DNA from: Candidatus Woesearchaeota archaeon
GTDB taxonomy: Archaea > Nanobdellota > Nanobdellia > Pacearchaeales > GW2011-AR1
Length of the DNA: 64,000 nucleotides
NCBI GenBank assembly: GCA_964482075.1
Contig: CAYZVU010000001.1
Span: 343-64,342, forward strand
Reading direction: 5' to 3'
Made by a program: the position numbers and the translations under genes. The first letter of the stretch is position 1. Each line of letters starts with the position of its first letter. Below are positions 20,165 to 35,107 of this stretch, piece by piece. The notes under the pieces are model-generated. The model did not search any database. It was not told the DNA's origin and saw nothing but the letters and a program-made list of their open reading frames with translations.

Positions 20165-20785
20165 ATGTTACCTGAAGGACAATCTGGACAAATAAAGAAA
20201 CAATTGCTGGAACAGATTAATTCTACTTTCCCAGAGGATAAAAAAGCTGATGCAATTTCCAAAATTGAAGTTATGGATGATGAGCAGCTTGAAGAATTTT
20301 TGAAACAAAATAATCTTATTAAGGGGGAAGGCGCGGGAGAAGAGCAGAAATGTGTTTTTTGCTCAATTGTTTTTGGGGATATTCCTTCTACTAAAATTGG
20401 AGAAAATGAGAAAGCTCTTGCAATTTTGGAAATTAATCCTATTTCAAAATCACATGCAATTGTGATCCCAAAAGAACATGTTTCAAAAGAAAATATTCCT
20501 CAAGAAGCCTTTGATTTAGCAAATGAAATTTCTGAGAAAATTAAAAACAAATTTGGCCCTAAGAATGTTATTATAGAAACATCTAATTTATTTGGACACG
20601 AAATTATTAATGTTCTTCCTATTTATGGGAATGAAACACTTTCTTCTCCAAAAAAGCAAGCTACTCCTGAAGAACTTTTAGAATTGCAAAAAAAATTAGG
20701 CGAGGCGGTTGTCGAGGTTGTTGAAGAGAAACCGACAGAAGAAATTAATGAAAAGAATACTTGGTTACCAAAAAGAATACCCTAG
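20165..20785 (+). CDS. HIT-like domain protein (degenerate histidine triad)
   Basis: HIT N-terminal core CVFCSIV...ALAILEINPISKSHAIVIPKEH. The triad region reads FGHEIINVLP, not the canonical HxHxH, and the protein has an N-terminal acidic extension. Confidence 0.5.
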   Translation: MLPEGQSGQIKKQLLEQINSTFPEDKKADAISKIEVMDDEQLEEFLKQNNLIKGEGAGEEQKCVFCSIVFGDIPSTKIGENEKALAILEINPISKSHAIVIPKEHVSKENIPQEAFDLANEISEKIKNKFGPKNVIIETSNLFGHEIINVLPIYGNETLSSPKKQATPEELLELQKKLGEAVVEVVEEKPTEEINEKNTWLPKRIP

Positions 20786-21598
20786 ATAATAAGATAAAAT
20801 AAATAAAATAAAAGTTATTAAGAAAACTGGGACAAAAGGTATCCCTTGCTTAATTAATACAAATTTCTTTTTCTTTTTTAGGAGAATTATTTCTTTTTCT
20901 GTAAGGCCTTCCCACTTGGCTTTTATTAATTTTTTTCCAATTTTAATATTACTACAAAGCCAATCCCCTTCTCTAAGGTCATTTGTTTTTACTTTTCTTA
21001 CCATGCAGGATTCATCAATTGCCTTGGCATATAAGAATAAGAAAGGTAATATAAAAATAAATATTCCTAAGAAAAAGAAAAGTTGTTGGTAAAAACTAAG
21101 AACCATTATAATTATACCTAAAGCCATTCCAATGTAAACCATTTTTCTATTTTTATTGAAGAGGAAATCAAACTTTTTTCTGAATATTTTTCTATTCCTT
21201 ATGAAGAGAACTGTGCTCCAGATGAGACCATATATAGCTCCTATGAAAAGAAAAATTAAAAAGAAGTTTAGGAATAGTCTAATATTTTCTATTAGAGTCG
21301 TGTGGAGCGGCAGAATTGCCCCTAGCGCCATGAAGAGCTTTGCATCTCCTCCTGCGAATAATCTTGAATAATAAAATATATTACCGAATATAAAGAATAA
21401 TACGAACCCTATTAGTCCTTGGTAGAAGAATGCGAAGTTTGTTTGAGCAAAGAATGAATAAAAGAATCTGAAGCCTAATGCAAAAATTATAAGAGAAAAA
21501 TTCAACCAGTTTGCAACCTCTCTTATTTTTAGGTCTTGGATTGTTGCAAATAAAATCCAAATTAAAGCTAAAGTCAATAAGAAGATTTCTGCGAACAT
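20765..21598 (-). CDS. pibD: Archaeal type IV prepilin peptidase (A24 family, PibD/FlaK-like)
   Basis: Polytopic membrane protein with both catalytic Asp motifs (FATIQDLKIREV and AGGDAKLFMALGA), GxGD presenilin-like. It sits adjacent to the pilin genes. Confidence 0.75.
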   Translation of the reverse strand: MFAEIFLLTLALIWILFATIQDLKIREVANWLNFSLIIFALGFRFFYSFFAQTNFAFFYQGLIGFVLFFIFGNIFYYSRLFAGGDAKLFMALGAILPLHTTLIENIRLFLNFFLIFLFIGAIYGLIWSTVLFIRNRKIFRKKFDFLFNKNRKMVYIGMALGIIIMVLSFYQQLFFFLGIFIFILPFLFLYAKAIDESCMVRKVKTNDLREGDWLCSNIKIGKKLIKAKWEGLTEKEIILLKKKKKFVLIKQGIPFVPVFLITFILFILSYYLGYSFW

Positions 21599-21609
21599 TT
21601 TTTAATAAT

Positions 21610-21729
21610 TTATTTAGATTTTAATATCTCGGTAGCTCTAAATTTTCCTCCTTTTCTATAAGGATGTTTTCGTTTTTCACGCTTTTTGTCTTTGCTTTTA
21701 TTGCGTGATTCAGAATCTGCTTTTGACAT
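21610..21729 (-). CDS. Small highly basic protein (39 aa), function unknown
   Basis: Hand translation gives MSKADSESRNKSKDKKREKRKHPYRKGGKFRATEILKSK. It lies in the gap between the peptidase and the first pilin and was not in the ORF track. Confidence 0.25.
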   Translation of the reverse strand: MSKADSESRNKSKDKKREKRKHPYRKGGKFRATEILKSK

Positions 21730-21772
21730 AGATTAAAATGTTGAAATAAGTTTAAATAAGTTTTGGGGAGAT

Positions 21773-22309
21773 TTATTTTTTACAAAGGTTCGAACAAGCG
21801 TCTTTATCATCCTTATTCCCATCATCACATTCTTCACCTGTATCTACTTTCCCATTTCCACAAAAAGGTATCTCCTTGCAACAGCTTTTACTACCAGAGG
21901 AATCGCTTGCCTTTAAAGTTAAATCTTCGTGAACATTTGGTACACAATCATTAATCATCCAAGAGCCTCCTAAATCAGAACATGAGCCGGGGCAAGGAAT
22001 TGAAGGGCAAGGCTTTACATTATAATCAGGATATTTTTCCTTATCTGAAAATTTCTCACAAGTTGAGGTTGTTTTAATTTTAGCCTTATCTATTAACTCT
22101 TTATCTGATGAACAAAAATTATATGTGTTCCCTGCAGAGCAAGCAACAGAACATGACTGAGCAATTTTATCTACATTTTCTGAAGATAACCATGGAGCCA
22201 TTGTGTCCCATCCCATCATAAATCCTAAAATTAAAAGAACTAAAACAAAAACTCCTAAAACTATTAATATAATTGCGCTTGTGCTCAACCCTTGACCTCT
22301 TTTTTCCAT
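21773..22309 (-). CDS. Pilin-like secreted protein, Cys-rich (class III signal peptide)
   Basis: N-terminus MEKRG-QGLSTSAIILIVLGVFVLVLLILGF (basic, then RG, then a 20+ residue hydrophobic stretch). There are 17 Cys in the C-terminal 120 aa. Confidence 0.6.
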   Translation of the reverse strand: MEKRGQGLSTSAIILIVLGVFVLVLLILGFMMGWDTMAPWLSSENVDKIAQSCSVACSAGNTYNFCSSDKELIDKAKIKTTSTCEKFSDKEKYPDYNVKPCPSIPCPGSCSDLGGSWMINDCVPNVHEDLTLKASDSSGSKSCCKEIPFCGNGKVDTGEECDDGNKDDKDACSNLCKK

Positions 22310-22351
22310 GATTGTTTAAAGAAAAATTTATTTATAAATGTTTGTAAATTA

Positions 22352-22762
22352 TTAGGAAAGTTCATATTGAACATGATAAAGTTCTTTTCGGTCTCCTGAA
22401 AAAGAAAATTCACTAGAATAATAAATCGCATGCAATATTTTTTTATCGCCGTCCATTTCAACATAAAATTTCCTGTTATTAGAAATACCTTCGTCTATTT
22501 TTTTGTTAAGTTCTTTAATTAAATCTTCTGGGTTTTTTTTAATATTTTCATAAAATTTTATTTGGTCTATTATTGAATTAACTTCAGAAATAATTATTAT
22601 CCCTGAAAAATCTTTTTTCACCTGATCATTTGGAAAATAAAATGCCATTATAGAAAGCACACAAATTGCTACAACCCCTATTACTAAAATCAATATTGGT
22701 ATGTTTGCTTTTTTGTTTTTCATTTTAAACATCCACGAACATCCCCTCAAGATATCTCCCAT
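22352..22762 (-). CDS. Pilin-like protein (class III signal peptide)
   Basis: An internal start MKNKKA-NIPILILVIGVVAICVLSIMAFYF fits the K/R-A/G cleavage motif; the real start is probably the Met at ~22724. Confidence 0.5.
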   Translation of the reverse strand: MGDILRGCSWMFKMKNKKANIPILILVIGVVAICVLSIMAFYFPNDQVKKDFSGIIIISEVNSIIDQIKFYENIKKNPEDLIKELNKKIDEGISNNRKFYVEMDGDKKILHAIYYSSEFSFSGDRKELYHVQYELS

Positions 22763-23216
22763 CTTTATTTAAATTTATTTTTTCCACTACATAAGGGGAA
22801 ATTTTATCATTATTTTTTCCAAGGATACTCACTAGGCGAGACCCAAAATATGAATTCTTCCTTATCCCAATCCCATTAAAATTTATCCCAATCCAAACCC
22901 CAACACTATAATCTGCCCAATAATCCTCTTTAAATATTTCTGCTGCGAGATCTCCATTGTCGCCTTCTATATTATTTATTTGAAGTTGTTTAAAAATTAT
23001 TTCCCTTCCACCAGATATTCCTGAATCTACCTCTGTCGCCAAATAAGAGAACATTGATTTTTCAGCAACAGTTTCTCTTACAAGAGGCTGTATTTCCTTG
23101 TTGCCTACAAATTTTGTAGAAGTTATAAAAATAGAAATTGAAAGAATTACAATTATCACGATTGTTGCAACTAGCCAAACCATTGTGTCGCTTATTTGTG
23201 CTTTTTTATTTTGCAT
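22725..23216 (-). CDS. Pilin-like protein (class III signal peptide)
   Basis: MQNKKA-QISDTMVWLVATIVIIVILSISIF. Confidence 0.55.
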   Translation of the reverse strand: MQNKKAQISDTMVWLVATIVIIVILSISIFITSTKFVGNKEIQPLVRETVAEKSMFSYLATEVDSGISGGREIIFKQLQINNIEGDNGDLAAEIFKEDYWADYSVGVWIGINFNGIGIRKNSYFGSRLVSILGKNNDKISPYVVEKINLNKDGRYLEGMFVDV

Positions 23217-23781
23217 TTTTTTCTATTTTTCTTATACTTGTGAAAATATTTATTTTATAAGGTGTTTGCCCATTTAGATTTTTATCTAAAATATACATTG
23301 TCCGATTCATACAATAAGGAAAAGTATCTGCGAGATTACAATTATCTTTGAGGTCTATATTTCCTTCTTGAATAGGCTCTCTAAAAATTTTTGAAGACCC
23401 AAAAGGATATATCTTAACTTCAATATAATACTGGTCATTATCCCATTCATAAATCTCTTCTGAATTAAAATTTAAATTGCATTTTGTTAAAAAATTTTTT
23501 CTTAATATAAAATTTCCTTCATCATCCAAAAGTTGTTGATCTAAATCCCCTCCTTGAGATAAACAATTTGCAACATGGTCTGTTAAAAGTTGAGCTTCTA
23601 TTTTTCTTACATCTAAAGGCTCTCCTTGAAAAATTGCGACCATATAAACAATTGCTGCTGCTACTAAGAAGAGAATTACAAACCAATATAGGGACATTAT
23701 TTTGCCTGTTGCTTTTTTATTCATTTTCTTTAATTTCAAAATAGTATTTATTTGAGTCAATAGATTCATGAGCGATAACAT
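23206..23781 (-). CDS. Pilin-like protein (class III signal peptide)
   Basis: Internal MNKKA-TGKIMSLYWFVILFLVAAAIVYMVAIF; the true start is probably the second Met (~23724). The C-terminal domain has 4 Cys. Confidence 0.5.
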   Translation of the reverse strand: MLSLMNLLTQINTILKLKKMNKKATGKIMSLYWFVILFLVAAAIVYMVAIFQGEPLDVRKIEAQLLTDHVANCLSQGGDLDQQLLDDEGNFILRKNFLTKCNLNFNSEEIYEWDNDQYYIEVKIYPFGSSKIFREPIQEGNIDLKDNCNLADTFPYCMNRTMYILDKNLNGQTPYKINIFTSIRKIEKNAK

Positions 23782-24103
23782 CTACATTATTAAAAAAAGA
23801 ATAAGAATTCCCTGTTCCAGACTCAAGCCTTACTGTAACAATATTTTCTTCAATAATTACTTCAGGAAAATTTTTTCCTTCTGCCTTATCAAAAGCATCT
23901 TCCATGTCTAAAATTATTTTCATTCCTGGTTGAGCTGCGTCAATCATTAAAGCTATTTGTTTTGAATATGCCTTTTCCATCATTGCTGTGTTGGAAACTT
24001 GGGAGTGTATAAATAAAATTAAAATTGTTAAAAAAAGTAAATTTAGGACAATAAAAACTATGTTCTCTACTAAGAGAGTTGCTTTTTTATTCCTCTTTTT
24101 CAT
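23717..24103 (-). CDS. Pilin-like protein (class III signal peptide)
   Basis: MKKRNKKA-TLLVENIVFIVLNLLFLTILILFI. Confidence 0.55.
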   Translation of the reverse strand: MKKRNKKATLLVENIVFIVLNLLFLTILILFIHSQVSNTAMMEKAYSKQIALMIDAAQPGMKIILDMEDAFDKAEGKNFPEVIIEENIVTVRLESGTGNSYSFFNNVDVIAHESIDSNKYYFEIKENE

Positions 24104-24178
24104 AGCGAATTAAGGAAATCTAAATTAATAAAGTTTTAGTAGAGTAATATTTAAATATTAAGATTTGTTTGGGAAGAG

Positions 24179-24523
24179 ATGAAGGGAAAGTCTAAAATTT
24201 ATACTCTTGCATTGAGTTTATTAATTTCTACTATACTTCTTAAAACAGGATATAGGCCATCTTGTTTAGAAAAAATTGCATTGGAAAATTCATCCCATAA
24301 AATAGAAAAAGCCAATAATGAAAAACCTATCGTGGATAGCGCTTCTTCAGAGTTTTTTTCTGGGGGGAATACTTCTTCACCCCTCCCTCCAAAAAAAATA
24401 AGGAGGGCTAAAATTAAAAATTCGAGAGCCACCACTACAACTACTACTTACTATAGAAATACCACCATTCCTCCATCCAGGGCTACAACTTATGAAAGCC
24501 CTACTCCCCCCGAAAAATTTTGA
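24179..24523 (+). CDS. Hypothetical secreted protein, Thr/Pro-rich
   Basis: N-terminal hydrophobic signal (IYTLALSLLISTILL) and a low-complexity TTTTTT/PP tail. The upstream antisense overlap is weak evidence against it. Confidence 0.3.
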   Translation: MKGKSKIYTLALSLLISTILLKTGYRPSCLEKIALENSSHKIEKANNEKPIVDSASSEFFSGGNTSSPLPPKKIRRAKIKNSRATTTTTTYYRNTTIPPSRATTYESPTPPEKF

Positions 24524-25062
24524 AAAGTAAAGATATTGAAAATATTAAAAGAAATTTCATAACTAAACATGATGAAGATTGTTATGTTGAATTAAAAGAC
24601 CTTAAACCCATTTTGAGATATAATAAAATAATTTCTCCTGAAGATGCCATTTTATTTTATTTGGCAAGTTTATATCATGGAAGATATGTAAAAAATCTAT
24701 TTTCTAAAACATCGACCCCTGAAGAGATAAATAATTTTATTTCTAAAACAAAGGGTAATTTTTCTTGGGGGAAAATGAAAATCCTCCCCTCAAAAATAAG
24801 AGAAAATTCAAGAAATCTTGTTTGTATTCCCACTGTTTATTATGAGATATTCCCTCGCGAAGCAATTTGTTTTGCGAATGAAGAAGGGGAACTAAAAATA
24901 GTTCCAAAATATTCCAAAAAGACAGACGATTACAAAAAAATGAAACAAATAAGTTTTTCATTCCACCCATATCTTCTTAAAACTTTTTCAAAGGAGGAAA
25001 GAAAATATATGAAAAAAGATAAATATGGTTGGGTAATTTTCCCGAGGGAATTAATCGAATGA
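24520..25062 (+). CDS. Hypothetical protein (180 aa)
   Basis: ORF is ATGA-coupled to its neighbours; no motif recognised. Confidence 0.4.
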   Translation: MKSKDIENIKRNFITKHDEDCYVELKDLKPILRYNKIISPEDAILFYLASLYHGRYVKNLFSKTSTPEEINNFISKTKGNFSWGKMKILPSKIRENSRNLVCIPTVYYEIFPREAICFANEEGELKIVPKYSKKTDDYKKMKQISFSFHPYLLKTFSKEERKYMKKDKYGWVIFPRELIE

Positions 25063-26510
25063 AATTTGGAGAAATTGCATCAGATATTGCGAGTAAACTT
25101 TCTTTTTGGGGGTCTATTACATTAGGAACTTTCGTTGTGGGGACAGCACTATTAGTCAACACATTCTCCACAGAGGCACCTTCAAAAAAATTAATTATCC
25201 CCCCGATTAGTTCTGAAAAAATTTGTGATAAAACAGAACTTGTTTCTATGCCGATGGGGGGAACAACGGGTTCAAAATTTGCTCCTGAAAATAAAAACCC
25301 TAGAAAAGAAAAAGTTCGTATTCGTTCTTTTGTAGATAAAGAATCAAACGAAATATTTTTAGAATATCTTCCAGAAGGATTTGATAAAGAGAGGACTTCT
25401 TCCAGAACCCCTTTAGAATCAGATTATGCTGTTATAAATAGCAGTTGGACTGGGGCTGCAATAAATATGCCTTCTTGTGCGAAAATTGAATCCCAAGACC
25501 AACAATCATTTAGAATTGAAAAAGGATGGGATACAAATATGAAATCTTTGGAAGATCATCCTGAAGCAAAATTCGTTATGGTTGGGGGAGATATTGTTAT
25601 GGAAGCTCTTACATCAAGGATTCCATATTCTGAAAAACTTTTTCAAAAAATGATGGATTATTCTGAAAAAAATAACCTTCTGAATATAAAAGCTATTCCA
25701 AATCTTCTCCCAGAAAAATTGAATGGAAGCGAGGTTGCAAGAAAAACTAGGATAAAATTAAATTTGGAAGATTGTGTAGGGGAGGTTAAATTTTTATTGG
25801 CTCCAGTAGTTTATATTGGAAGAGAATTTGACGCAAACCGACAAGGAAATTTTGGAAGTGGTAGATTAGAAGGAATGATTACTTTTGCGATGCAAGGGGG
25901 GATGACTGAAGAAGAAAAAGTAGGAATAGAAAAATATTTTTTGCAAGGAAAAGAACTTCAATATGCAACCCTTGCAAGACATAACGCACTTTTTGGGAAA
26001 AATGTTAAAAAAAATCCTTATATAATTGGCCAAGAAAAAAACAAAGCTGAAATGTCTGAAGATCTCAAAGAAGTCGGGGGTGTATCATATAGGTTTGGTG
26101 AAGAACGAATGCTGGAGAACACCAATATTACAATCAATGTGGTCCAAGTTAAAAAAGACCTTAAAAAAATTATATCCCGGCTAAGCGAGACTGGATTTGA
26201 AACAAAGCCTCTTTTTGAACACACTTTTTTGATTGAGGGAGATGTAATTTCTAATTTTATGCTAAATGGTATTGATACAGGACAAATTCTGACATACATA
26301 AAAATCTTATTGGAATATCAAAAGAGAACAAAAGGGAAGTTAATTCTCAAAACAAGTAATTTTGAGGATAAAGAATACTTTAAATTATTGGAAACAATTA
26401 AAAAAAATTATTCTGGTTTTAGTTCTAAGGAACTTACATATGAATATATAATAGCCCCCCATTCCATAGAACTACTAAAGGCATCAGTCAATCCAATTAG
26501 AGGACGTTAA
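25029..26510 (+). CDS. Hypothetical membrane-anchored protein (about 480 aa)
   Basis: N-terminal TM anchor (SFWGSITLGTFVVGTALLVNTF) followed by a large soluble domain. The start is more likely MKFGEIAS at ~25060. No motif recognised. Confidence 0.45.
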   Translation: MGNFPEGINRMKFGEIASDIASKLSFWGSITLGTFVVGTALLVNTFSTEAPSKKLIIPPISSEKICDKTELVSMPMGGTTGSKFAPENKNPRKEKVRIRSFVDKESNEIFLEYLPEGFDKERTSSRTPLESDYAVINSSWTGAAINMPSCAKIESQDQQSFRIEKGWDTNMKSLEDHPEAKFVMVGGDIVMEALTSRIPYSEKLFQKMMDYSEKNNLLNIKAIPNLLPEKLNGSEVARKTRIKLNLEDCVGEVKFLLAPVVYIGREFDANRQGNFGSGRLEGMITFAMQGGMTEEEKVGIEKYFLQGKELQYATLARHNALFGKNVKKNPYIIGQEKNKAEMSEDLKEVGGVSYRFGEERMLENTNITINVVQVKKDLKKIISRLSETGFETKPLFEHTFLIEGDVISNFMLNGIDTGQILTYIKILLEYQKRTKGKLILKTSNFEDKEYFKLLETIKKNYSGFSSKELTYEYIIAPHSIELLKASVNPIRGR

Positions 26511-26546
26511 TATAATTTATTTAATTATTTTAAAATTCAACCGAAA

Positions 26547-27290: not shown

Positions 27291-27397
27291 TTTATGTGGG
27301 AATTGTTAATCTATTTAATAATAAATATAACCCTGCTAAAGCGATTGTAAATAGAACAATCCATGAGAGATATTTTATAAAAAAATCTAAATTCATT

Positions 27398-27934
27398 TTA
27401 TGCTTTTGAGATTATTCCATCCTTATAATCTATATTTAATTTTATTGGAGGCTCTATATTGATTGCGCCATTTGCTATATTAAAATCTTCTTTAAGTTCC
27501 GAACAAGCCCCGTTTTCTCCGCAAAATTCAGAGAAATATTTTATGTTAAGATTTTTTAGATTAATTCTATTTACTGGGCAAAAACACAAGCATCTCTCCC
27601 ACCCCATAGAAGAGCATCGTGTTGGGAGTGGCCCCTCTGAACCCCAAATATGAATTCTTCCAAAGAAAATATTCCCATTATTATTTTTTATCCCCTTATT
27701 AGGCCATGAAAAAATTGCCCAATTATTTGGATTATAAATCTCAACCTCTGGAATTTTGTTATTCATTTCTTCTATTAAATGCTTTAGTGAAGCCTCTGCA
27801 AATTTAAGATTTTTTTCTTGCTTATTTGTCAAATATAAAGATGTTAAAAAATAAATTAAAAAAGCAATTGCTATAACTGCTATTATTATCTTCACTGTTT
27901 CTTCTGCAAGTAAAAAAGCTCTTTTATTATTCAT
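27398..27934 (-). CDS. Pilin-like protein, Cys-containing (class III signal peptide)
   Basis: MNNKRA-FLLAEETVKIIIAVIAIAFLIYFL, plus a Cys-rich C-terminal part (CSSMGWERCLCFCPV...CGENGAC). Confidence 0.5.
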   Translation of the reverse strand: MNNKRAFLLAEETVKIIIAVIAIAFLIYFLTSLYLTNKQEKNLKFAEASLKHLIEEMNNKIPEVEIYNPNNWAIFSWPNKGIKNNNGNIFFGRIHIWGSEGPLPTRCSSMGWERCLCFCPVNRINLKNLNIKYFSEFCGENGACSELKEDFNIANGAINIEPPIKLNIDYKDGIISKA

Positions 27935-28296
27935 TTACTAGTACACTTCCCCCCGAAAATCTTCATTCCAAGAATTTTATTAGGAGTATATTGACATCCT
28001 AAAGAGAGACACTCTTTCTTCGTGCAAGTATCCCAAAAACTTTTCCTACAAGATTTACAATTCCCCTCTTTAAAAGAATCTTCTTTTGGAGGGTTTATTA
28101 TCGAGGAATCTCCTGCCCCTGAATTTAAATTGTCTGAATTTTCAGAACCATTCCCCACAAGATTATCAAAAAAAGGAATTACCTGCCCATTAAAAAAAAA
28201 GTAAACTCCTACTACAACTGTTACAAATACAAAAATTCCTAAAATTATTTTTATTAATTGTCCTATTGTAAGCTCTGCCAAATTAAATTCCTCCAA
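27931..28296 (-). CDS. Pilin-like protein, Cys-rich
   Basis: N-terminus LA-ELTIGQLIKIILGIFVFVTVVVGVYFFF is similar to the 26547 pilin; the C-terminus is CKSCRKSFWDTCTKKECLSLGCQYTP...GGKC. Confidence 0.45.
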   Translation of the reverse strand: MEEFNLAELTIGQLIKIILGIFVFVTVVVGVYFFFNGQVIPFFDNLVGNGSENSDNLNSGAGDSSIINPPKEDSFKEGNCKSCRKSFWDTCTKKECLSLGCQYTPNKILGMKIFGGKCTSK

Positions 28297-28316
28297 ATAA
28301 ATTTTTAAATTGATCT

Positions 28317-28433
28317 ATTAAACTTATTCCCTTGACTTTTAAAATTCCTATAAAAATTGCTAAAATTGCTAAAATTGCTATTGCAATTAATAACCAAGGA
28401 AGATAATCTGAAACAATGCCTCTTTTTTTCATA
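28317..28433 (-). CDS. Small pilin-like protein (about 49 aa, not in ORF track)
   Basis: Hand translation gives MKKRG-IVSDYLPWLLIAIAILAILAIFIGIL... (KRG then a hydrophobic stretch); it contains a (gctaaaatt)x3 tandem repeat. Coordinates are approximate. Confidence 0.3.
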
Positions 28434-28468
28434 TTTTAAAGAAAGAAAAAAGATTAATAAATCTATCT

Positions 28469-30664
28469 CTAAATTAGATTCCCGAGCACAACTGTTGTTA
28501 AAAAGAATAATGCTACAATAGCTAGGAATGCGGTTACAAAATATAATAAAATTCCTCTCTTAAGATATTTTGCTTTTTTATTTAATTCTTCTAATTTGTC
28601 TTCTCCAGAATCAATTGTTACTAAAGCACTTGTTAAAATAAAGATTATCTGAATTATATAAACTCCTATTGCAATTTGCAAATAGTACGGTGGGATCATT
28701 TTTGTTAAGTCAAATATATTTAATATTGCATCTAAATTTCCAGCGCCTGCTCCTCCGCCCATTGCAAATGCTTCAGACATTTTATTTAAAATTGCTGTAA
28801 TCATCCCAGCCAAACCAACAACAATTCCTGAAAGTAATGGTGCTAAAAAAGTCATGTTTGATTTCATGTCTGATATTATTTCTGCAAGCATATCCCTAAG
28901 ACGAGTTGTTATTTTTTGTATATTTTTTACATATTCTGAAATACTCATTAAGCTTATTGCTGAAATTTTTAAACCTTTTTTTGAAGAATCTATAAGAACC
29001 CTCATGCTTGTTGCGATTAATTCTGAAGGATAATTCACAATTGCCCCACGGCGAGGATGGAATATTGCTTTTTCCACACTCATCCCTAATTGTTTTATAT
29101 TATAATCAACTTTTCTAAAAAAATCCCCTGTTCTTAAGCCCATGGAAGATTTTGCAATTTTTCCAAAAACAAGTTCTGGAGGGACTCCGTTTCCTAATCT
29201 GTTTCCTAATTGAAATAATGAATTATTAAATTCTTGTTCTAACTGTTTTGTTTTCGTTCTCTCTTTAATTAAATCTCTTGTTCGCGCACCATAGGAAATC
29301 CAAAAAAAGAGGGCTATCCCGAAGGGGATAAATAAACTCATCAATAAAGCCCCAAACCCAAAAGGCCCTATCATTGTAAGATTCCCATCACTATTAGTAA
29401 TTTCTTTAAAATCAAGCATCTTTTCCGCATTCCCATTTATCATAATTGAAAAATCATCTTGAATGCCAACCCAATTATTTATGGGGGTATATTGAAAAAT
29501 TAATGGGAGTAATCCAATTAAAAGAAATGGCAAGCAAATTAAAAATGCCTTTAAATAAATAGATTTATCTTTGAATTTTGGATAAAGAGGATTTTTTTCT
29601 AAAAGATTTGATTCCCCATGCCCACCAGGTCTTAAAAGCAATATTTTATCTGTTAAATAAAAAACCATGAAAGGTACAATTAAATTGAAAATTATAATCA
29701 CATGATACCATTTTAGATAATCCCCAATCATTGCTGAAGCAAGAGGCAATAGGGCTAACCCAAGTGTTGGAAGAACGACCCCCAACATATAAACATTTGT
29801 TAAAGGACTTCTTACATTGTGTGTAAATTTTAGCATCTTATCATAAACCCCGTCGAGAATTACTTGAAGAGATTTTTCTAAGGTTAAAATTCTTCTTGCA
29901 TTATCTGGCTCAAATAAACTAGATTCAATTAAATGAAACGCCTCAACAAATTCAATAGAATAATCTTTCCACTGAAAAAGATAATTATCTAAACTTTCTT
30001 TTATTGTAGAAAACTTTCCGATTTGGACATTATAAAAAACTTTTTTAAAATCTAGGGAAAGGGGATATTGTAAATGCTCTGCTGCAAAAGAAATTGCTCT
30101 TTCTAAATTTGGTGTGTGCCTCATATAAACTACGATGTATAAAATTGCCGGAACCATTTGTGAAGATGCCTTTAATCTCCATTTATTTGCTAGTCTTTCT
30201 GGATAGCCATTAACAAAATAAAATAAAAAGATAGATACAACTGCAATTAAAATAAAAAAAATCATTGGGAAATTTGCTAAGAATTCTACAACAAAATTTG
30301 AAGAGGATCTTGATTTTATTAATGCATATGCTACTGAACTTAAAAGGCCGAATAAAAAAACAGAAATAAAAGCCATAACCCCTAATCCTAATGCTTGCCA
30401 TGGCTCAACATCTAAGTGGGCAATTTCCAAATGTTTCTTTATTTTTTCCTCGTCTTTTTTTGAAGGCTTTATCTTGATTATATTTCCTAGGCTAGTGCAC
30501 CATCTTTCATATTTTGATAAATCTGGCGCCATTTCATTCTTGAATTTGGCATATTCTCGACTATAATTTACATTGTTGAGGGATGTAGTTTTTATTTGGC
30601 CTTCAATTCTAGAACTATGTTTTGCGAGGATATCTTCTACAGTTGGCTTTTTAGGAGATTTCAT
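28469..30664 (-). CDS. Type IV pilus/archaellum assembly platform membrane protein (TadC/FlaJ/GspF-like)
   Basis: 731-aa polytopic membrane protein with two large cytoplasmic domains, lying directly next to the secretion ATPase. The assignment is by architecture and context, not by a sharp motif. Confidence 0.55.
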   Translation of the reverse strand: MKSPKKPTVEDILAKHSSRIEGQIKTTSLNNVNYSREYAKFKNEMAPDLSKYERWCTSLGNIIKIKPSKKDEEKIKKHLEIAHLDVEPWQALGLGVMAFISVFLFGLLSSVAYALIKSRSSSNFVVEFLANFPMIFFILIAVVSIFLFYFVNGYPERLANKWRLKASSQMVPAILYIVVYMRHTPNLERAISFAAEHLQYPLSLDFKKVFYNVQIGKFSTIKESLDNYLFQWKDYSIEFVEAFHLIESSLFEPDNARRILTLEKSLQVILDGVYDKMLKFTHNVRSPLTNVYMLGVVLPTLGLALLPLASAMIGDYLKWYHVIIIFNLIVPFMVFYLTDKILLLRPGGHGESNLLEKNPLYPKFKDKSIYLKAFLICLPFLLIGLLPLIFQYTPINNWVGIQDDFSIMINGNAEKMLDFKEITNSDGNLTMIGPFGFGALLMSLFIPFGIALFFWISYGARTRDLIKERTKTKQLEQEFNNSLFQLGNRLGNGVPPELVFGKIAKSSMGLRTGDFFRKVDYNIKQLGMSVEKAIFHPRRGAIVNYPSELIATSMRVLIDSSKKGLKISAISLMSISEYVKNIQKITTRLRDMLAEIISDMKSNMTFLAPLLSGIVVGLAGMITAILNKMSEAFAMGGGAGAGNLDAILNIFDLTKMIPPYYLQIAIGVYIIQIIFILTSALVTIDSGEDKLEELNKKAKYLKRGILLYFVTAFLAIVALFFLTTVVLGNLI

Positions 30665-30720
30665 TTTATCACTTCTTTTAATAAATAAAATAAGGAGAAA
30701 TGATTAATAAATGTTTGGAG

Positions 30721-31425
30721 TTATTTTTTTATCGCATAAAAAACACCATAATTAAGGTATTCCCAAGTCTGACTAACTTTTTTAAATCCTGCTTCTTTTA
30801 ACCAAATTAATTGATTTTCTATTGTCTCAGGGATATCTTCTTCAAGATAATTATCAAACCAAAAATTTCCTTCTTCTTCGCCCAATTCTTGAATTAAAAA
30901 CTTTTTCCATTCCTCTTCTTTTTCTTTTGTCTCCTTCTCGGAATCAAATTTAATTATATCCCCCACAATTAAAATTCCTCCTTTATTTAGGAGATTAAAT
31001 AAAGTCCGATAAAATTTTTGTTTTTCTTCATAAGTTAAATGATGTATACTTAAAACCGCAACGATTAAATCATATTTATTTTCAAATTTAATCTTTTTCA
31101 TATCTTTATTATAGAACATAACTCTGTTAAGATAATTCCTTAACCTTCTTCTCCCCTTTTTGATCATATCTTCGGAAATATCAACCCCCTCTATTGTGGA
31201 ATTAGAAAAAATTTTTAATATTTCTAATGCTGTCTGCCCCGATCCAATACCCAAATCAAGAACATTTATTTTCTTATCTTTTGGGAAGGGAATTAATTTT
31301 ATTATTTTATCATGCATTTGTTCATATTTGGGAATTAGCTTTCTAATTAAATCATCATATTCCCAATTCTTATGGTATCTATTTGTGAAATGCTCTTTAA
31401 CTAATTCAGAATGATCTGATTTCAT
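30721..31425 (-). CDS. Class I SAM-dependent methyltransferase
   Basis: Motif I VLDLGIGSGQTALEI, post-I acidic residue (EGVDISEDM) and motif II/III (DLIVAVLSIHHL...LLNKGGILIV). Its 3' end is in the pilus operon and its start overlaps the ATPase stop by 4 nt. Confidence 0.75.
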   Translation of the reverse strand: MKSDHSELVKEHFTNRYHKNWEYDDLIRKLIPKYEQMHDKIIKLIPFPKDKKINVLDLGIGSGQTALEILKIFSNSTIEGVDISEDMIKKGRRRLRNYLNRVMFYNKDMKKIKFENKYDLIVAVLSIHHLTYEEKQKFYRTLFNLLNKGGILIVGDIIKFDSEKETKEKEEEWKKFLIQELGEEEGNFWFDNYLEEDIPETIENQLIWLKEAGFKKVSQTWEYLNYGVFYAIKK

Positions 31426-33716
31426 TTAATCCTCTTCGCGACTTCTTCATCTAGCCATTTTTTCCATTCTGGAAAAACATATTCGCTTAAAGGTAATCCT
31501 TTTTCTTGAATTATTTTATCTGAAAATTTATGGAACATGCTATTTGAAAGATTATTAAATTTAGATTCTAGTAAATCATGGATTTTTGTTTGTTCAGAAA
31601 CTTGAACAATTTCTGTTTTCATTTTTGCTCTTAGTAAAATATTATCCCAAACAGCGTCCCAATTTCCAGCCCAACCTTTTACATTAGAGGCTATTCCTTT
31701 TATTATTTCAGAATCTCCGTTGATTAAATCATCTGTTGCTTCTAGCTCATCTTTTTCTACATTATATCTCATTAAATCTACAAAACCCCCTTCAAGTAAA
31801 GGATCTTTTTGCCAGTGTTTTCTTATCTCTGAAATTTGTACAACTCTTTTCCAAGAGCGCATTCCATCTGCAGATTTTATTGGGTTACAAACCACAATTA
31901 TATCTGTTGCTTTGAAACTTGTAGCAGGAACCCCCAAATCATTTACAACTCTATCAAAAACTCCGTAAGGTGATGCTCCATGAATTGTTCCAGCCACAAC
32001 ATTTGCCAAGGCTCCAACACGCATTGCTTCGTAAAGTGCCTTTGCCTCTGAGCTTCTAACTTCACCAATTATTAAAGAGCTATCTCCCAATCTCAAACTT
32101 GTTCTAATTCCATCTTCTGCAGAAACTTCTGCTGTTGATTTTAACATTGAAGAACGAACTTTCATTCGGATAATATCATATTTTAATTTTCTTAAAGATT
32201 CTACAGGTAATTCTAAAGTATCTTCAATTACAATTATTCTAAATTTGGGGAGAATCTCTAAGAGTAAACTTCCAAGTAAAGAAGTTTTCCCAGAAGATCT
32301 TGTTCCTGCAACTAATAATGTTCTTGAACCGTCTATTAAAAAACTTAATAGTCCTGCTGCCAAAGGATTGAGCATTTTATTTTGGATAAATAATGGAAGA
32401 GTCCAAGGTGCCTCCCGATGTCTTCTAATTGAATAGGCCATTCCGTCTGGAGAAAGTGGTCTTTGGATTATAGCAATTCTCGCCCTTATCTTTCCTATTT
32501 CTAATTGAGTATCTAAAATTGGGTTTGCTTCATCCAATGGTCTTCCAGAAATCATTCTAAATTTAGCTGCCCATGAGTCTACATCTTCTTGACTTGGTAA
32601 AATATTTGTTGAACATTCATCATAATCTTGATGTCTTAAAAAAATATTTGTTAAGGGTATTGGTGCATTTAGAGAAATATCATGAAGCCTTTTGTCTTGT
32701 AATAAAACTTCTATCAACCCAAATCCAATAGTATTTCTCACAAGAATAGTTGATAATTGATTTAAATCAGAATAATTTAATTTTATACTTTTTGCTTGTG
32801 CTAAATCTTGTAGTAAATCTTTTGCAATATTAAAGAAGACTTGCCTCGTCCTATCTGTATCTGTGAACTCTTCTGCTTTAGGCTGATGTTCAATTAAAAC
32901 TCCTCTTGCGAGATTTAAAAGAATATTTTGATCTTCATTTAATGAATTTTCTGGGGGGACTAAATGATAAATTAATTTTGCCTCTTCTTTCATTCTTAAA
33001 ATAGTCACGAGAGATTCATCATATTTACTTCCTGAAATTTTATATTGATCCACAATTTCAGCTTCAGTTGGTAAATCCTGAACAAGACGTGTGAATGTAA
33101 AATTGGGGATTACATCTGGCTTAAATATTTTTTTATAAATTTCTCTTTCTCCTTTTCTATAATGTTCTGTATATTGAGAAATTGTTTGGATTATTTTTGT
33201 TTCGTCTAAAATATCAAAAATTCTTTCTAGAAGATTTATGTAACTTGATTGATCTGTTCTAAACATTTCTTCAATATGATCTAAATTAATTCTCGCCTTG
33301 ATTAATATTTTTTTTAATTCATAATGTGCAGATAAGGGGTCTTGTTTTAATAAAAATAAAAAAGTAAAAAGATCATTATATCTTTGGGAAAAGAATTGTT
33401 GATAATTTTGATCTGATATTAATTTTTCAGGGGATAGAATCTTTTCTTGTTTGATTAAATAAATATACAATTGAGCAATTTCTAGCAAAAAGGATGTTTC
33501 TTTAAAATCATAGTTATAATTTTTTTGTTGAACAAATACTACTCTTGAAGCATTTGGATTTTCAATTAAAGCGTCGACTGTTTTTCCCATTATTTCTGGG
33601 GACTCTGCTAAATTTGGCACAAAAGGAGCTCCGAGATAATTAATATAAAGTACATCTTCTCCGCTTTCTCTTTCTATCTGGTAAGAATATAATGGCGCCT
33701 CTTTTTCAAATTGCAT
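31422..33716 (-). CDS. Type IV pilus/archaellum secretion ATPase (FlaI/PilB/GspE family) with ~450-aa N-terminal extension
   Basis: Walker A LLVAGTRSSGKTSLL and Walker B FRIIVIEDTLEL, plus a His box in the C-terminal ~300 aa. The N-terminal ~450 aa is unassigned. Confidence 0.8.
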   Translation of the reverse strand: MQFEKEAPLYSYQIERESGEDVLYINYLGAPFVPNLAESPEIMGKTVDALIENPNASRVVFVQQKNYNYDFKETSFLLEIAQLYIYLIKQEKILSPEKLISDQNYQQFFSQRYNDLFTFLFLLKQDPLSAHYELKKILIKARINLDHIEEMFRTDQSSYINLLERIFDILDETKIIQTISQYTEHYRKGEREIYKKIFKPDVIPNFTFTRLVQDLPTEAEIVDQYKISGSKYDESLVTILRMKEEAKLIYHLVPPENSLNEDQNILLNLARGVLIEHQPKAEEFTDTDRTRQVFFNIAKDLLQDLAQAKSIKLNYSDLNQLSTILVRNTIGFGLIEVLLQDKRLHDISLNAPIPLTNIFLRHQDYDECSTNILPSQEDVDSWAAKFRMISGRPLDEANPILDTQLEIGKIRARIAIIQRPLSPDGMAYSIRRHREAPWTLPLFIQNKMLNPLAAGLLSFLIDGSRTLLVAGTRSSGKTSLLGSLLLEILPKFRIIVIEDTLELPVESLRKLKYDIIRMKVRSSMLKSTAEVSAEDGIRTSLRLGDSSLIIGEVRSSEAKALYEAMRVGALANVVAGTIHGASPYGVFDRVVNDLGVPATSFKATDIIVVCNPIKSADGMRSWKRVVQISEIRKHWQKDPLLEGGFVDLMRYNVEKDELEATDDLINGDSEIIKGIASNVKGWAGNWDAVWDNILLRAKMKTEIVQVSEQTKIHDLLESKFNNLSNSMFHKFSDKIIQEKGLPLSEYVFPEWKKWLDEEVAKRIK

Positions 33717-35101: not shown

Positions 35102-35107
35102 AATACA

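What the first reader, a model, noticed from the sequence alone, without database searches (positions are those of the whole stretch)
20765..33716. Complete type IV pilus-like locus with nine pilin-like genes, several of them unusually cysteine-rich
The locus contains a prepilin peptidase (GxGD-type A24), nine ORFs with class III signal peptides (basic residues, then K/R-A/G, then a >20-residue hydrophobic helix), a FlaJ/TadC-like platform and a FlaI/PilB-like ATPase, all on the minus strand. Several pilin-like proteins have dense Cys content in the exported part: 17 Cys in 21773-22309, plus CKSCRKSFWDTCTKKEC..GC and CLCFCPV motifs in two others. Archaeal pilins rarely rely on many disulfides. 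For a small-genome archaeon, possibly host-attached, a disulfide-stabilised adhesive tip or minor-pilin set would be a plausible attachment apparatus.
Basis: partly seen in the sequence, partly recalled or inferred. Interest (0 to 1): 0.6.

Follow-up and report, generated by a model that had tools for sequence, protein, structure and literature searches.

The report
Pacearchaeal pilus operon, disulfide-rich pilins
This is a real type IV pilus-like gene cluster, with the same gene order in dozens of tiny Pacearchaeota archaea; several of its pilin-like proteins carry conserved cysteine pairs, and in related genomes some carry enzymes that cut bacterial cell walls, hinting that the apparatus contacts bacteria.

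Summary
On the minus strand of 20765-33716 lie an A24 prepilin peptidase, a PilB/FlaI/CpaF-type ATPase, a 731-aa polytopic membrane protein and eight ORFs with conserved NKK[G/A]|hydrophobic-helix N-termini. There is also a leaderless ninth ORF and a conserved 34-aa one-helix ORF.

Corrections: 21773-22309 has 14 Cys, not 17. The 121-aa ORF has no basic leader and really starts at 28281. The "platform" only weakly resembles T2SSF/FlaJ.

The order atp-platform-p49-p121-p178-tm34-p247-p128-p191-p163-p136-pC14-peptidase is seen complete or nearly so in about 40 of 49 Pacearchaeota-type loci with enough flank.

Conserved Cys (6, 6, 8 and 4 in four families) are even in number and are lost in pairs. 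That argues for disulfides.

The two most striking Cys-rich stretches are lineage-specific C-terminal add-ons. One is a TIGR02232 Cys-rich acidic repeat.

In 8 relatives, syntenic pilin-like genes carry murein amidase or lytic transglycosylase domains confirmed by Pfam.

Best reading: a lineage-specific type IV filament machine with modular, disulfide-stabilised minor pilins, probably for contact with other, possibly bacterial, cells. It is a new variant of a known kind, and its function is inferred, not shown.

The parts
20765..21598 (-). Dedicated class III signal (prepilin) peptidase, A24 family, 277 aa
   Evidence: PF01478 E=2.2e-12, above cutoff. Weak FlaK and Arc_PepC hits. D22 and A-G-G-D85 are invariant in 31 syntenic orthologs. 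It is the last gene of the conserved order.
21610..21729 (-). 39-aa highly basic ORF between the peptidase and the last pilin-like gene; membership uncertain
   Evidence: Translation. Called as a gene in a public assembly. tblastn hits at the same position in only 6 loci.
21773..22309 (-). pC14: pilin-like protein, 178 aa, 14 Cys. It has a KRG|QGLST leader and TM helix, a conserved 6-Cys core (res 36-106) and a window-specific 8-Cys tail that ends in a Cys-rich acidic repeat.
   Evidence: Cys 53, 57, 66, 84, 101 and 106 are invariant or nearly so in 65 homologs; tails of 0-119 aa hold 0-10 Cys. TIGR02232 32.4 bits (cutoff 20.8) at res 150-177. AF2 core pLDDT is 84-97 and the tail is below 50. 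No PDB fold match.
22352..22723 (-). p136: pilin-like protein, 123 aa from the internal start MKNKKA|NIPILILV; one Cys, in the TM helix
   Evidence: 34 syntenic orthologs. Orthologs L050 (Pfam) and L109/L138 (phmmer only) carry an SLT-type module.
22725..23216 (-). p163: pilin-like protein, 163 aa, MQNKKA|QISDTMVWLV, no Cys
   Evidence: 24 syntenic orthologs. No Pfam hit.
23206..23724 (-). p191: pilin-like protein, 172 aa from the internal start MNKKA|TGKIMSLYWF; 4 conserved Cys
   Evidence: Cys 54 and 82 are invariant; 129 and 138 are lost together in 3 orthologs. Orthologs in L014, L034 and L064 carry an inserted Amidase_2 domain; L030 and L074 carry an SLT-type insert at a different loop.
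23717..24103 (-). p128: pilin-like protein, 128 aa, KKA|TLLVENIVFIVL (Glu at +5), no Cys
   Evidence: 46 loci with a hit. Ortholog L044 carries a C-terminal SLT domain.
24179..26510 (+). Window-specific plus-strand insertion of three ORFs (114, 180 and 483-493 aa) that splits the operon; not part of the conserved system
   Evidence: No Pfam hits. 0, 0 and 2 weak tblastn hits in 80 loci. The same junction (p247/p128) holds other opposite-strand ORFs in L001, L014 and L034.
26547..27290 (-). p247: largest pilin-like protein, 247 aa, MKKA|ELTTQQIV, 8 conserved Cys
   Evidence: 495 homologs, all unnamed and without Pfam. Cys 42, 61, 67, 74, 106, 131, 134 and 239 are conserved; 131+239 and 67+74 are lost as pairs. 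AF2 pLDDT 87.3, pTM 0.82. No Foldseek match in PDB or BFVD.
27292..27396 (-). tm34: conserved 34-aa single-helix micro-protein, no leader motif
   Evidence: Translation. tblastn hits in 39 loci at the same position; lengths 33-35 aa, 53% median identity.
27398..27934 (-). p178: pilin-like protein, 178 aa, NKRA|FLLAEETVKIII (Phe +1, Glu +5, as in bacterial type IV pilins), 6 conserved Cys including CxCxC
   Evidence: Cys 107, 115, 117, 119, 138 and 144 are conserved; 119+138 are lost together in 3 orthologs.
27931..28281 (-). p121: leaderless one-helix protein (M-AELTIGQLIK) with a lineage-specific 6-Cys C-terminal tail; revised TTG start at 28281
   Evidence: Orthologs are 54-55 aa with no Cys and start M(A)ELTI. 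The DNA shows TAA-T-TTG-GCA-GAG with GGAGG upstream. A homologous 6-Cys tail occurs in L014.
28283..28432 (-). p49: tiny pilin-like protein (49 aa, mature about 44 aa), MKKRG|IVSDYLPWLLIA; candidate head-less Flp/Epd-type filament subunit
   Evidence: 45 orthologs of 47-57 aa; the most conserved of the pilin-like set (63% median identity). The motif [KR]G|xxx[ED]YLPW is shared. No Pfam Flp or Class_III_signal hit.
28469..30664 (-). Putative platform: 731-aa polytopic membrane protein with two cytoplasmic helical domains
   Evidence: Always directly downstream of the ATPase region; 59-76% identity in 60 loci. No family hit on its own. Weak T2SSF hits at res ~481-597 in 7/20 orthologs. Distant homologs reach 24.4 bits against a cutoff of 25.2, in both domains. 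EpsF cytoplasmic domain E=0.076 with a diverse profile.
30721..31425 (-). SAM-dependent methyltransferase, overlapping the ATPase stop by 4 nt; a window-specific insertion
   Evidence: PF13649 and PF13847 at E~1e-19. Only one weak hit, in L054, among 80 loci. The ATPase/platform junction is an insertion hot-spot in 29 loci.
31422..33716 (-). Secretion/assembly ATPase, 764 aa, with an N-terminal extension of about 280 aa that has no family match
   Evidence: PF00437 at res 418-604. NCBIfam TadA-family and FlaI hits at E~1e-36, below equivalog cutoffs. PDB: 2OAP 2.8e-27, CpaF 2.3e-24, FlaI 1.2e-16. More than 120 clusters at 74-80% identity.
33771..34661 (-). 296-aa protein with C-terminal TM helices; loosely associated
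   Evidence: No Pfam hit. C-terminal part hits in 12 loci. In L022, L025, L030, L050 and L074 the hit lies between the ATPase and the platform.
34763..36893 (.). Conserved neighbours outside the finding: divergent coiled-coil pair (34763-35101 +, 35108-35734 +) and two paralogous 4-TM proteins (35773-36363 -, 36408-36893 -)
   Evidence: tblastn hits in 72, 71, 67 and 67 of 80 loci at fixed offsets upstream of the ATPase. The paralogy has E=1e-8. Only a weak FlaC_arch hit, E=0.024.

Best explanation
The region is the Pacearchaeota version of a type IV filament (pilus-like) assembly operon.

Shown or directly read from sequence:
- One PilB/CpaF/FlaI-class ATPase.
- A dedicated two-aspartate A24 peptidase.
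- Eight neighbouring genes whose products start with a short basic leader ending in [KR][GA], followed by a hydrophobic helix of about 20 residues. There are also two to three one-helix micro-proteins.
- All are held in one fixed gene order across the order.

Inferred:
- The 731-aa membrane protein is a very divergent GspF/TadBC/FlaJ-type platform.
- The peptidase removes the leaders, and the ATPase-platform motor extracts the helices from the membrane and polymerises them.
- The bulk subunit is either the 44-residue head-less p49 (like Flp/Epd pilins) or pC14, which has a conserved N-terminus and a hypervariable C-terminal tail.
- p178, p247, p128, p191, p163 and p136 are low-abundance minor pilins that prime or cap the fibre.
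- Their exported heads are stabilised by disulfides: three in the pC14 core, three in p178, four in p247 and two in p191.
- These small pilin-like modules act as carriers onto which lineages graft functional modules. In this genome the grafts are two Cys-rich tails. In relatives they are murein amidase or lytic transglycosylase domains.

The most likely job is contact with, and local breaching of, the surface of another cell, plausibly a bacterium. Within the overall confidence, about 0.85 applies to 'type IV filament-like machine with disulfide-bonded pilin-like substrates' and about 0.4 to 'attachment to a (bacterial) host'.
For: - Machine parts.
- Eight class III-like N-termini clustered in 6.7 kb, against one false positive in the rest of the 64 kb. 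The consensus NKK[G/A]| is kept in each family.
- Fixed synteny across about 40 loci.
- Tight spacing and overlaps (ATGA-type overlaps, 1-nt gaps) read from the coordinates.
- AF2 places an N-terminal helix at 10-32 (pC14) and 8-30 (p247), followed by a confident globular part.
- Disulfides: Cys are confined to the exported part. Counts are even in 62/65 (pC14) and 105/118 (p247) members. Pairwise co-loss is seen for C131+C239, C67+C74, C57+C106, C119+C138 and C129+C138.
- Modularity: pC14 tails range from 0 to 119 aa with 0-10 Cys. p121 is 54 aa in most relatives but 121 aa with 6 Cys here and in L014.
- Murein hydrolase modules sit in one ORF with the pilin-like N-terminus in L014, L034, L064, L022 (Amidase_2) and L030, L044, L050, L063 (SLT). 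They are inserted at two different loops of p191 or appended to three other carriers.
- Platform: near-threshold T2SSF hits in both cytoplasmic domains of distant full-length homologs.
- Context from papers: pili-like appendages connect ultra-small groundwater cells to hosts (PMC7906910). Pacearchaeota and Woesearchaeota encode extracellular murein transglycosylase proteins proposed to act on bacterial hosts (PMC8204110). Modular pilins are a known design in bacteria (PMC8179133).
Against: - No pilin-like protein hits any pilin family (PF04021, PF07963, Flp) at a meaningful E-value.
- The two AF2 models have no Foldseek match to any solved pilin or archaellin. 'Pilin' therefore rests on the N-terminus and the gene context only.
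- A basic stretch before a TM helix is also what an ordinary signal-anchor looks like, and cleavage is untested.
- Platform membership is not established.
- No filament, expression or host is known for this organism.
- The window's own genes lack hydrolase modules, so the bacterial-wall link is by orthology only.
- There is only one ATPase, so retraction is unexplained.
- The operon is split here by a plus-strand insertion.
Confidence: 0.62

Rival explanations
1. The same machine builds a short pseudopilus rather than an adhesive pilus. It would be a DNA-uptake (Com-like) or protein-secretion (type II-like) piston. That would feed a nucleotide-scavenging archaeon or export the Cys-rich enzymes encoded in the same loci.
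For: - There are many minor-pilin-like genes and a single ATPase, as in Com and T2SS systems.
- The insertion hot-spots of relatives hold Sec-signal secreted enzymes and lectins (subtilase, chondroitinase-B-like, ConA-like), which could be cargo.
- Pacearchaeota are described as nucleotide scavengers (PMC8204110 abstract).
Against: - The cargo-like genes carry ordinary Sec signals and vary from genome to genome.
- No ComEC/ComEA-like gene was seen next to the locus in the window or in the 80 loci, by Pfam on the ORFs examined.
- Hydrolase modules grafted onto the pilin-like proteins themselves fit a tip that touches a wall better than a piston does.
Confidence: 0.2
2. The 'pilins' are not cleaved or polymerised. 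They are bitopic (N-in, C-out) membrane proteins that form a static, disulfide-rich surface complex. The ATPase, membrane protein and peptidase would serve another substrate, for example only p49.
For: - No pilin family or fold match was found.
- p191 has Lys at +3 and p121 has no leader.
- Positive-inside leaders are generic.
Against: - Gly or Ala at -1, directly after Lys/Arg, is kept in eight separate families across dozens of genomes.
- A dedicated A24 peptidase closes the operon in every complete locus.
- Glu at +4/+5 in p178, p128, p163 and p49 recalls pilin assembly signals.
Confidence: 0.12
3. The cysteines bind metals (Zn or Fe-S) rather than forming disulfides. Alternatively, the enrichment is a general compositional trait of this lineage's exoproteome with no special meaning for the pilus.
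For: - CxCxC and CxxC spacings occur in p178 and p121.
- There is a weak Fe-S family hit, E=0.053.
- Other secreted proteins in relatives have 28-53 Cys, so Cys-richness is not specific to the pilins.
Against: - Cys lie only in exported parts.
- Totals are even, and losses occur strictly in pairs of distant positions such as 131+239. This is the signature of disulfide partners.
- The general-trait reading is compatible with disulfides rather than opposed to them.
Confidence: 0.05

Closest known systems
Epd pilus cluster of Methanococcus maripaludis ('system 1' of archaeal type IV filaments)
   Same: An operon of about 11 genes with its own A24 peptidase, one ATPase, several pilin-like genes and a main pilin that lacks a globular head. 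System 1 is reported in some DPANN (bioRxiv 10.64898/2026.04.22.720090). pC14 would have Gln at +1, as EppA substrates do (my recollection of Szabo et al. 2007, not tested).
   Different: System 1 has two platform genes, whereas this locus has a single 731-aa gene. No sequence match to PF04021-type pilins was found. The heads are Cys-rich and their predicted folds are unmatched among solved structures.
Bacterial Tad/Flp pilus
   Same: CpaF is among the best solved relatives of the ATPase (2.3e-24). The peptidase has no methyltransferase domain. The tiny pilin has a G|xxx[ED]Y motif close to the Flp G|xxxxEY motif (the Flp motif is from memory). Extra pseudopilin-like genes are present.
   Different: There is no Pfam Flp or TadE hit. 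The Glu-Tyr pair sits one residue closer to the cleavage site. There are no TadZ, secretin or RcpC equivalents, and this is an archaeal lineage.
Thermoproteales subclade 4E type IV pili systems (Makarova et al. 2016)
   Same: Almost all components carry multiple conserved Cys expected to form disulfides (PMC4858521).
   Different: Those organisms are hyperthermophilic Thermoproteota. No sequence relation was tested or seen. Here the ATPase and platform are Cys-poor (0.3%).
Modular type IV pilins of bacteria (S. sanguinis PilB/PilC; GspK with an inserted domain)
   Same: A small pilin module carries a grafted or inserted functional module that is presented by the filament (PMC8179133). Here these are Cys-rich tails in the window and amidase or SLT modules in relatives.
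   Different: These are archaeal carriers with no IPR012902/N_methyl signature. That paper does not mention peptidoglycan or hydrolase modules (0 occurrences of those words).
Type IV pili of episymbiotic Saccharibacteria (CPR)
   Same: An ultra-small, host-dependent cell uses type IV pili for host binding (PMC9894109 and PMC11623550). This is the functional analogy behind the attachment reading.
   Different: Those are bacterial PilA-type systems with retraction ATPases, and they have experimental support. None of that is available here.

Membership tests
Type IV filament (T4P/T2SS/Tad/archaellum) superfamily machine | Secretion ATPase of the PilB/GspE/TadA/FlaI family | tested here: met
   PF00437 at 53.5 bits against a cutoff of 24.9. 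PDB relatives afGspE2, CpaF and FlaI. The Walker A motif GTRSSGKTS can be read.
Type IV filament (T4P/T2SS/Tad/archaellum) superfamily machine | Polytopic platform protein of the GspF/PilC/TadBC/FlaJ (T2SSF) family | tested here: inconclusive
   The window protein has no hit. 7/20 orthologs give weak T2SSF hits, best E=0.013, at res ~481-597. Distant homologs reach 24.4 and 24.1 bits against a cutoff of 25.2, in both cytoplasmic domains. EpsF E=0.076. The internal repeat has E~0.05.
Type IV filament (T4P/T2SS/Tad/archaellum) superfamily machine | A24 prepilin peptidase with two catalytic aspartates (second in GxGD) | tested here: met
   PF01478 at 47.8 bits against a cutoff of 26.5. D22 and GGD85 are invariant in 31 orthologs.
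Type IV filament (T4P/T2SS/Tad/archaellum) superfamily machine | Substrates with a class III signal peptide: short basic leader, G/A at -1, hydrophobic helix | tested here: met
   Eight ORFs pass a FlaFind-like rule, against one elsewhere in the window. The motif is conserved in orthologs. It is not met by p121 or tm34.
Type IV filament (T4P/T2SS/Tad/archaellum) superfamily machine | Leader actually cleaved and subunits polymerised into a filament | not testable with these tools
   This needs proteomics, heterologous processing assays or cryo-ET.
Canonical type IV pilin / archaeal pilin fold | Globular head resembling solved pilins or archaellins | tested here: not met
Archaeal TFF 'system 1' (Epd-like) | Two separate platform genes; Epd-type pilins (PF04021/DUF361 motif) | tested here: not met
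   There is a single 731-aa gene. No PF04021 hit at E<=0.1 for any pilin-like ORF, nor at E<=10 for p49 orthologs.
Flp/Fap pilin family | Match to the Flp profile; G|xxxxEY motif | tested here: not met
   No Flp_Fap hit in 45 p49 orthologs at E<=10. The motif is similar but shifted by one residue.
Cys-rich acidic repeat (TIGR02232 / DUF4215) | Profile match above the curated cutoff | tested here: met
   TIGR02232 at 32.4 bits against a cutoff of 20.8, res 150-177 of pC14. Pfam DUF4215 at 25.1 bits, just below its cutoff of 27.
Modular pilins carrying murein hydrolases (seen in relatives only) | Pilin-like N-terminus and an Amidase_2 or SLT domain in one uninterrupted ORF at a syntenic position | tested here: met
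   Met for L014, L034, L022 (Amidase_2 at 64-76 bits) and L044, L050, L063, L030 (SLT at 21.3-54.9 bits). The flanking halves align to window p191. The window's own genes are the short forms and do not meet it.

The most novel reading that the evidence does not exclude
The conserved Pacearchaeota operon builds a filament whose tip is a set of interchangeable, disulfide-braced carrier pilins. Lineages arm these carriers with murein amidases, lytic transglycosylases or hypervariable Cys-rich binding tails. It would then be a cross-domain attachment and wall-piercing device that lets an archaeon live on, or prey on, bacteria. The variable tails, such as the 8-Cys tail of 21773-22309, would act as host-specificity determinants.
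Probability: 0.3. Interest if true: 0.8.

Novelty: new variant of a known kind. Interest (0 to 1): 0.55.

Why it matters
Pacearchaeota are abundant and uncultured, and no host is known for them. How they contact other cells is an open question. This analysis turns a block of 'hypothetical proteins' into a defined operon of about 13 genes, with testable parts:
- a processing site for each substrate;
- predicted disulfide pairs;
- two candidate main subunits;
- a carrier-plus-module logic.

The recurrent grafting of murein hydrolases onto these carriers in relatives gives a concrete, genome-encoded reason to look for bacterial rather than archaeal partners. It also links two observations that the papers I read treat separately: pili-like appendages on ultra-small cells, and murein hydrolases in DPANN genomes.

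Tried and rejected
- Exact-protein look-up of the ATPase found nothing. The pC14 look-up returned only a 9.5-kb Logan contig with no environmental information.
- Pfam and NCBIfam on all pilin-like ORFs gave no pilin family. 45 p49 orthologs scanned at E<=10 gave only noise, with N_methyl at E>=0.26.
- Platform tests:
  - A single sequence and a shallow profile against PDB gave nothing.
  - hhalign of the N-half against the C-half with the shallow alignment gave nothing.
  - With the diverse alignment it gave only E~0.05.
  - The top PDB hits of the diverse profile are TM-helix noise such as presenilin.
- The knottin/EGF idea for the Cys-rich tails could not be assessed, because the AF2 tail is below pLDDT 50.
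- The bacterial-type promoter and terminator scan was uninformative: 68 sites against 68.2 expected.
- The methyltransferase as a pilin N-methylase was rejected as a system component, because it is absent from relatives.
- The metagenome scan with the p191 profile returned only short-form matches. It cannot give the frequency of insertions, though it yielded two more p136-SLT-like ORFs.
Predicted Cys-Cys distances could not be checked against the co-loss pairs.

Full report
**What is there**

The window is AT-rich (about 31% GC). The ATPase gene at 31422-33716 has more than 120 homolog clusters at 74-80% identity. Where these are named, the names are Pacearchaeota, Nanoarchaeota or Woesearchaeota. 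The organism is therefore a DPANN archaeon of the Pacearchaeota type.

Reading from 33716 down to 20765 on the minus strand:
- ATPase, 764 aa
- SAM methyltransferase
- 731-aa polytopic membrane protein
- ORFs of 49, 121, 178, 34 and 247 aa
- a plus-strand block of three ORFs (24179-26510)
- ORFs of 128, 172, 163, 123 and 178 aa
- a 39-aa basic ORF
- an A24 peptidase

Genes overlap or are 1-56 nt apart, apart from the plus-strand block.

**Check of the observation**

The peptidase is a solid A24 member (PF01478 at 47.8 bits). Both catalytic aspartates, D22 and GGD85, are invariant in 31 orthologs.

The ATPase matches PF00437. Its closest solved relatives are A. fulgidus GspE2 (2.8e-27), the Tad ATPase CpaF (2.3e-24) and FlaI (1.2e-16).

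I applied a FlaFind-like rule: a hydrophilic leader of at most 20 residues containing [KR][GA], followed by an 18-residue window with mean Kyte-Doolittle hydropathy of at least 2.5. It was run on every ATG-started ORF of at least 40 aa in all six frames. It selects eight ORFs between 21.7 and 28.4 kb and only one elsewhere, an FtsX-like permease.

Its orthologs are 54-55 aa and begin M(A)ELTI. The DNA shows a TTG one base after the stop of the 49-aa ORF, with GGAGG upstream, so the protein most likely starts M-AELTIGQ at 28281.

Cys counts: 21773-22309 has 14, not 17. This is still 7.9% against a window background of 0.93% (P about 2e-9).

**The locus is a conserved operon**

A scan of one genome per species with the ATPase returned 80 loci. 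Local tblastn of all window proteins shows the order ATPase, membrane protein, p49, p121, p178, tm34, p247, p128, p191, p163, p136, pC14, peptidase. It is complete or nearly so in about 40 of 49 loci that have at least 8 kb of downstream sequence.

Median identities fall from 74% (ATPase) and 66% (membrane protein) to 63% (p49) and then 36-56% for the other pilin-like proteins.

The 34-aa ORF has hits in 39 loci, so it is a real gene.

The methyltransferase and the plus-strand block are absent from relatives. They sit at two of three recurrent insertion hot-spots: ATPase/membrane protein, membrane protein/p49, and p247/p128.

Conserved neighbours also extend upstream of the finding. A divergent coiled-coil pair and two paralogous 4-TM proteins are present in 67-72 of 80 loci.

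**The N-termini**

Each of the eight families keeps a consensus NKK[G/A] immediately before the hydrophobic helix. After the putative cleavage site:
- p178 reads FLLAEETLKIII, with Phe +1 and Glu +5 as in bacterial type IV pilins.
- p128 reads TILIEN, with Glu +5.
- p247 reads ELTTQQIV.
- pC14 reads QGLSTNAIILI.
- p49 reads I(I/V)S(E/D)YLPWLLIA.

The last resembles the Flp G|xxxxEY motif (recalled from memory), shifted by one residue. No Flp or other pilin profile matches it.

**The cysteines**

Four families have fixed Cys sets in the exported part:
- pC14 core: 6 Cys (53, 57, 66, 84, 101, 106)
- p178: 6 Cys (107, 115, 117, 119, 138, 144)
- p247: 8 Cys (42, 61, 67, 74, 106, 131, 134, 239)
- p191: 4 Cys

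Totals are even in 62 of 65 pC14 homologs and 105 of 118 p247 homologs. The odd seventh Cys of many p178 orthologs was seen in the TM helix in the examples inspected.

When a conserved Cys is missing, its loss is paired: 131+239 (six to eight times), 67+74, 57+106, 119+138 and 129+138. Even counts plus pairwise co-loss of sequence-distant positions is the expected signature of disulfide partners. It argues against metal clusters.

The 72-residue, 8-Cys tail of pC14 is window-specific. Homologs have tails of 0-119 aa with 0, 2, 4, 6, 8 or 10 Cys (one has 7), and the median tail is 13 aa with no Cys. The last 28 residues of the window's tail match the TIGR02232 Cys-rich acidic repeat above its cutoff. 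The CKSCRKSF...GC stretch is a C-terminal extension of p121 that is shared with only a few relatives, such as L014.

**Structure**

AF2 with 65 homologs gives pC14 a confident core: pLDDT 84-97 for residues 10-110, with an N-terminal helix at 10-32, then two helices and a hairpin. The tail is unmodelled.

AF2 with 118 homologs gives p247 pLDDT 87.3 and pTM 0.82.

**The 'platform'**

The 731-aa protein has about ten hydrophobic segments and no family match on its own. The evidence for T2SSF membership is as follows:
- Seven of 20 orthologs give weak T2SSF hits at residues ~481-597.
- An exhaustive search found 1034 representative clusters.
- Among the most distant full-length relatives, T2SSF reaches 24.4 and 24.1 bits (cutoff 25.2). 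The hits fall in the first cytoplasmic domain and, in another relative, in the second. A related Spore_III_AB signal also appears.
- A diverse profile hits the EpsF/GspF cytoplasmic domain at E=0.076.
- An internal repeat is only hinted at, E~0.05.

I regard membership in the GspF/TadBC/FlaJ superfamily as likely but not demonstrated.

**An unexpected lead from relatives**

Length outliers among the syntenic orthologs turned out to carry murein hydrolase domains within the same ORF:
- p191 orthologs of L014 and L034 have an Amidase_2 domain (E 2e-17 and 3e-21) inserted between the parts that align to window residues 1-126 and 127-171.
- L064 has the same insert, but it is frameshifted.
- L030 and L074 have an SLT-type insert at a different loop, between residues 68 and 75.
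- L044 (p128), L050 (p136) and L063 have C-terminal or internal SLT domains (up to 8e-15).
- L022 has an Amidase_2 on the gene at the p163 position (3.5e-20).
- Two metagenome contigs carry a p136 ortholog with an SLT-like module.

Eight genomes are supported by Pfam and L074 by similarity only, out of roughly 50 loci with adequate flank. The SLT modules keep the E-S motif and the amidase keeps its His-containing motifs (read).

These represent several independent grafting events onto different carriers. Archaea lack murein (established knowledge), so the simplest reading is that the exported pilin-like proteins meet bacterial walls.

Murein hydrolases in Nanoarchaeota, Woesearchaeota and Pacearchaeota are already reported (PMC12352652, PMC9723730, PMC8204110). 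None of those three papers contains the words pili or pilin, so the physical link to this operon appears undescribed in the papers I could read.

The design matches the 'modular pilin' concept from bacteria (PMC8179133).

The window's own genes are the short, module-free forms. Its modules are the two Cys-rich tails.

**Mechanism proposed**

Shown: the parts list, the motif, the synteny and the Cys behaviour.

Inferred:
- The peptidase cleaves after [KR][GA].
- The ATPase and the membrane protein polymerise the helices.
- p49 (head-less, the most conserved) or pC14 (conserved N-terminus, hypervariable exposed tail) is the main subunit.
- The others form a priming or tip complex whose disulfide-braced heads carry lineage-specific modules.
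- The apparatus mediates contact with another cell.

Rivals are a DNA-uptake or secretion pseudopilus, a static complex of uncleaved bitopic proteins, and metal-binding Cys. None is excluded by computation alone, although the last is disfavoured.

**Comparison and novelty**

Functionally and architecturally the closest systems are:
- the Epd cluster of methanogens ('system 1', also reported in some DPANN);
- the bacterial Tad/Flp pilus.

The locus fails their specific membership tests: it has one platform gene, and it gives no Epd or Flp pilin profile match.

Disulfide-rich type IV pilus components have a precedent in Thermoproteales, and Cys-rich secreted proteins are common in these loci. 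Cys-richness alone is therefore not exceptional.

I rate it a new variant of a known kind. It is a widespread, unannotated, lineage-specific type IV filament operon with pilin-like carriers whose predicted folds match nothing in the PDB.

**Verdict**

The finding is real and mostly correctly read, with numerical and annotation corrections. Interest is moderate (0.55). It would rise if the bacterial-wall link in relatives were confirmed experimentally.

Noticed in passing
L014:18114-19316, L034:16711-17901, L064:8159-9417, L022:17563-18795, L030:19005-20108, L074:19003-20151, L044:10618-11628, L050:18500-19315, L063:14697-15455, L109:5015-5950, L138:1168-2103: Syntenic orthologs of the window's pilin-like genes carry murein hydrolase modules (Amidase_2 or SLT). 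These are inserted at two different loops of p191 or appended to p128, p136 and a p163-position gene. L074, L109 and L138 are SLT-like only by phmmer similarity, not by Pfam. The L064 copy is split by a frameshift.
   Followed up: yes
window 30721-31425 (-): A SAM-dependent methyltransferase is translationally coupled to the ATPase (4-nt overlap) but absent from 79 of 80 related loci. It sits in an insertion hot-spot, and a role in pilin N-methylation is unsupported.
   Followed up: partly
window 24179-26510 (+): Three plus-strand ORFs with no family match split the operon between p247 and p128. The 483-493-aa ORF has a signal-anchor-like N-terminus and weak relatives in L003 and L025. Other opposite-strand, lipoprotein-like ORFs occupy the same junction in L001, L014 and L034.
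   Followed up: partly
window 34763-35101 (+), 35108-35734 (+), 35773-36363 (-), 36408-36893 (-): A divergent pair of coiled-coil proteins (one with a weak FlaC_arch hit, E=0.024) and two paralogous 4-TM proteins are conserved upstream of the ATPase in 67-72 of 80 loci. They may belong to the system.
   Followed up: partly
window 27292-27396 (-) and 21610-21729 (-): Two micro-ORFs. One is a 34-aa single-helix protein with hits in 39 loci. The other is a 39-aa, extremely basic peptide called as a gene in a public assembly but found in only 6 loci.
   Followed up: partly
L076:12329-13837, L051:12762-14645, L078:9325-11955, L018:4346-9097, L026:11753-17329, L003:12477-14651, L051:18869-21247, L027:11661-14336: The insertion hot-spots of related loci hold Sec-signal secreted proteins. 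Several are extremely Cys-rich (28-53 Cys). They include a subtilase, a chondroitinase-B-like beta-helix, a ConA-like lectin, DUF285 repeats and a DUF4215-containing protein. Cys-rich exoproteins therefore seem to be a lineage trait.
   Followed up: partly
window 33771-34661 (-): A 296-aa protein with C-terminal TM helices lies upstream of the ATPase here. Its relatives lie between the ATPase and the membrane protein in L022, L025, L030, L050 and L074.
   Followed up: no
L024 (DAIQOR010000004.1), L045 (DATKUW010000085.1), L036 (MWBV01000001.1): Records titled 'bacterium', 'Bacillota bacterium' and 'Diapherotrites archaeon' carry this Pacearchaeota-type ATPase at 73-75% identity. L036 and L045 also carry the operon; in L024 only the ATPase was detected. 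These are probably taxonomic mislabels of MAGs.
   Followed up: no
window 37230-37889 (+): A polytopic protein with a sub-threshold Peptidase_M50 hit (23 bits against a cutoff of 27.2) is conserved 3-5 kb upstream of the ATPase in 52 loci.
   Followed up: no
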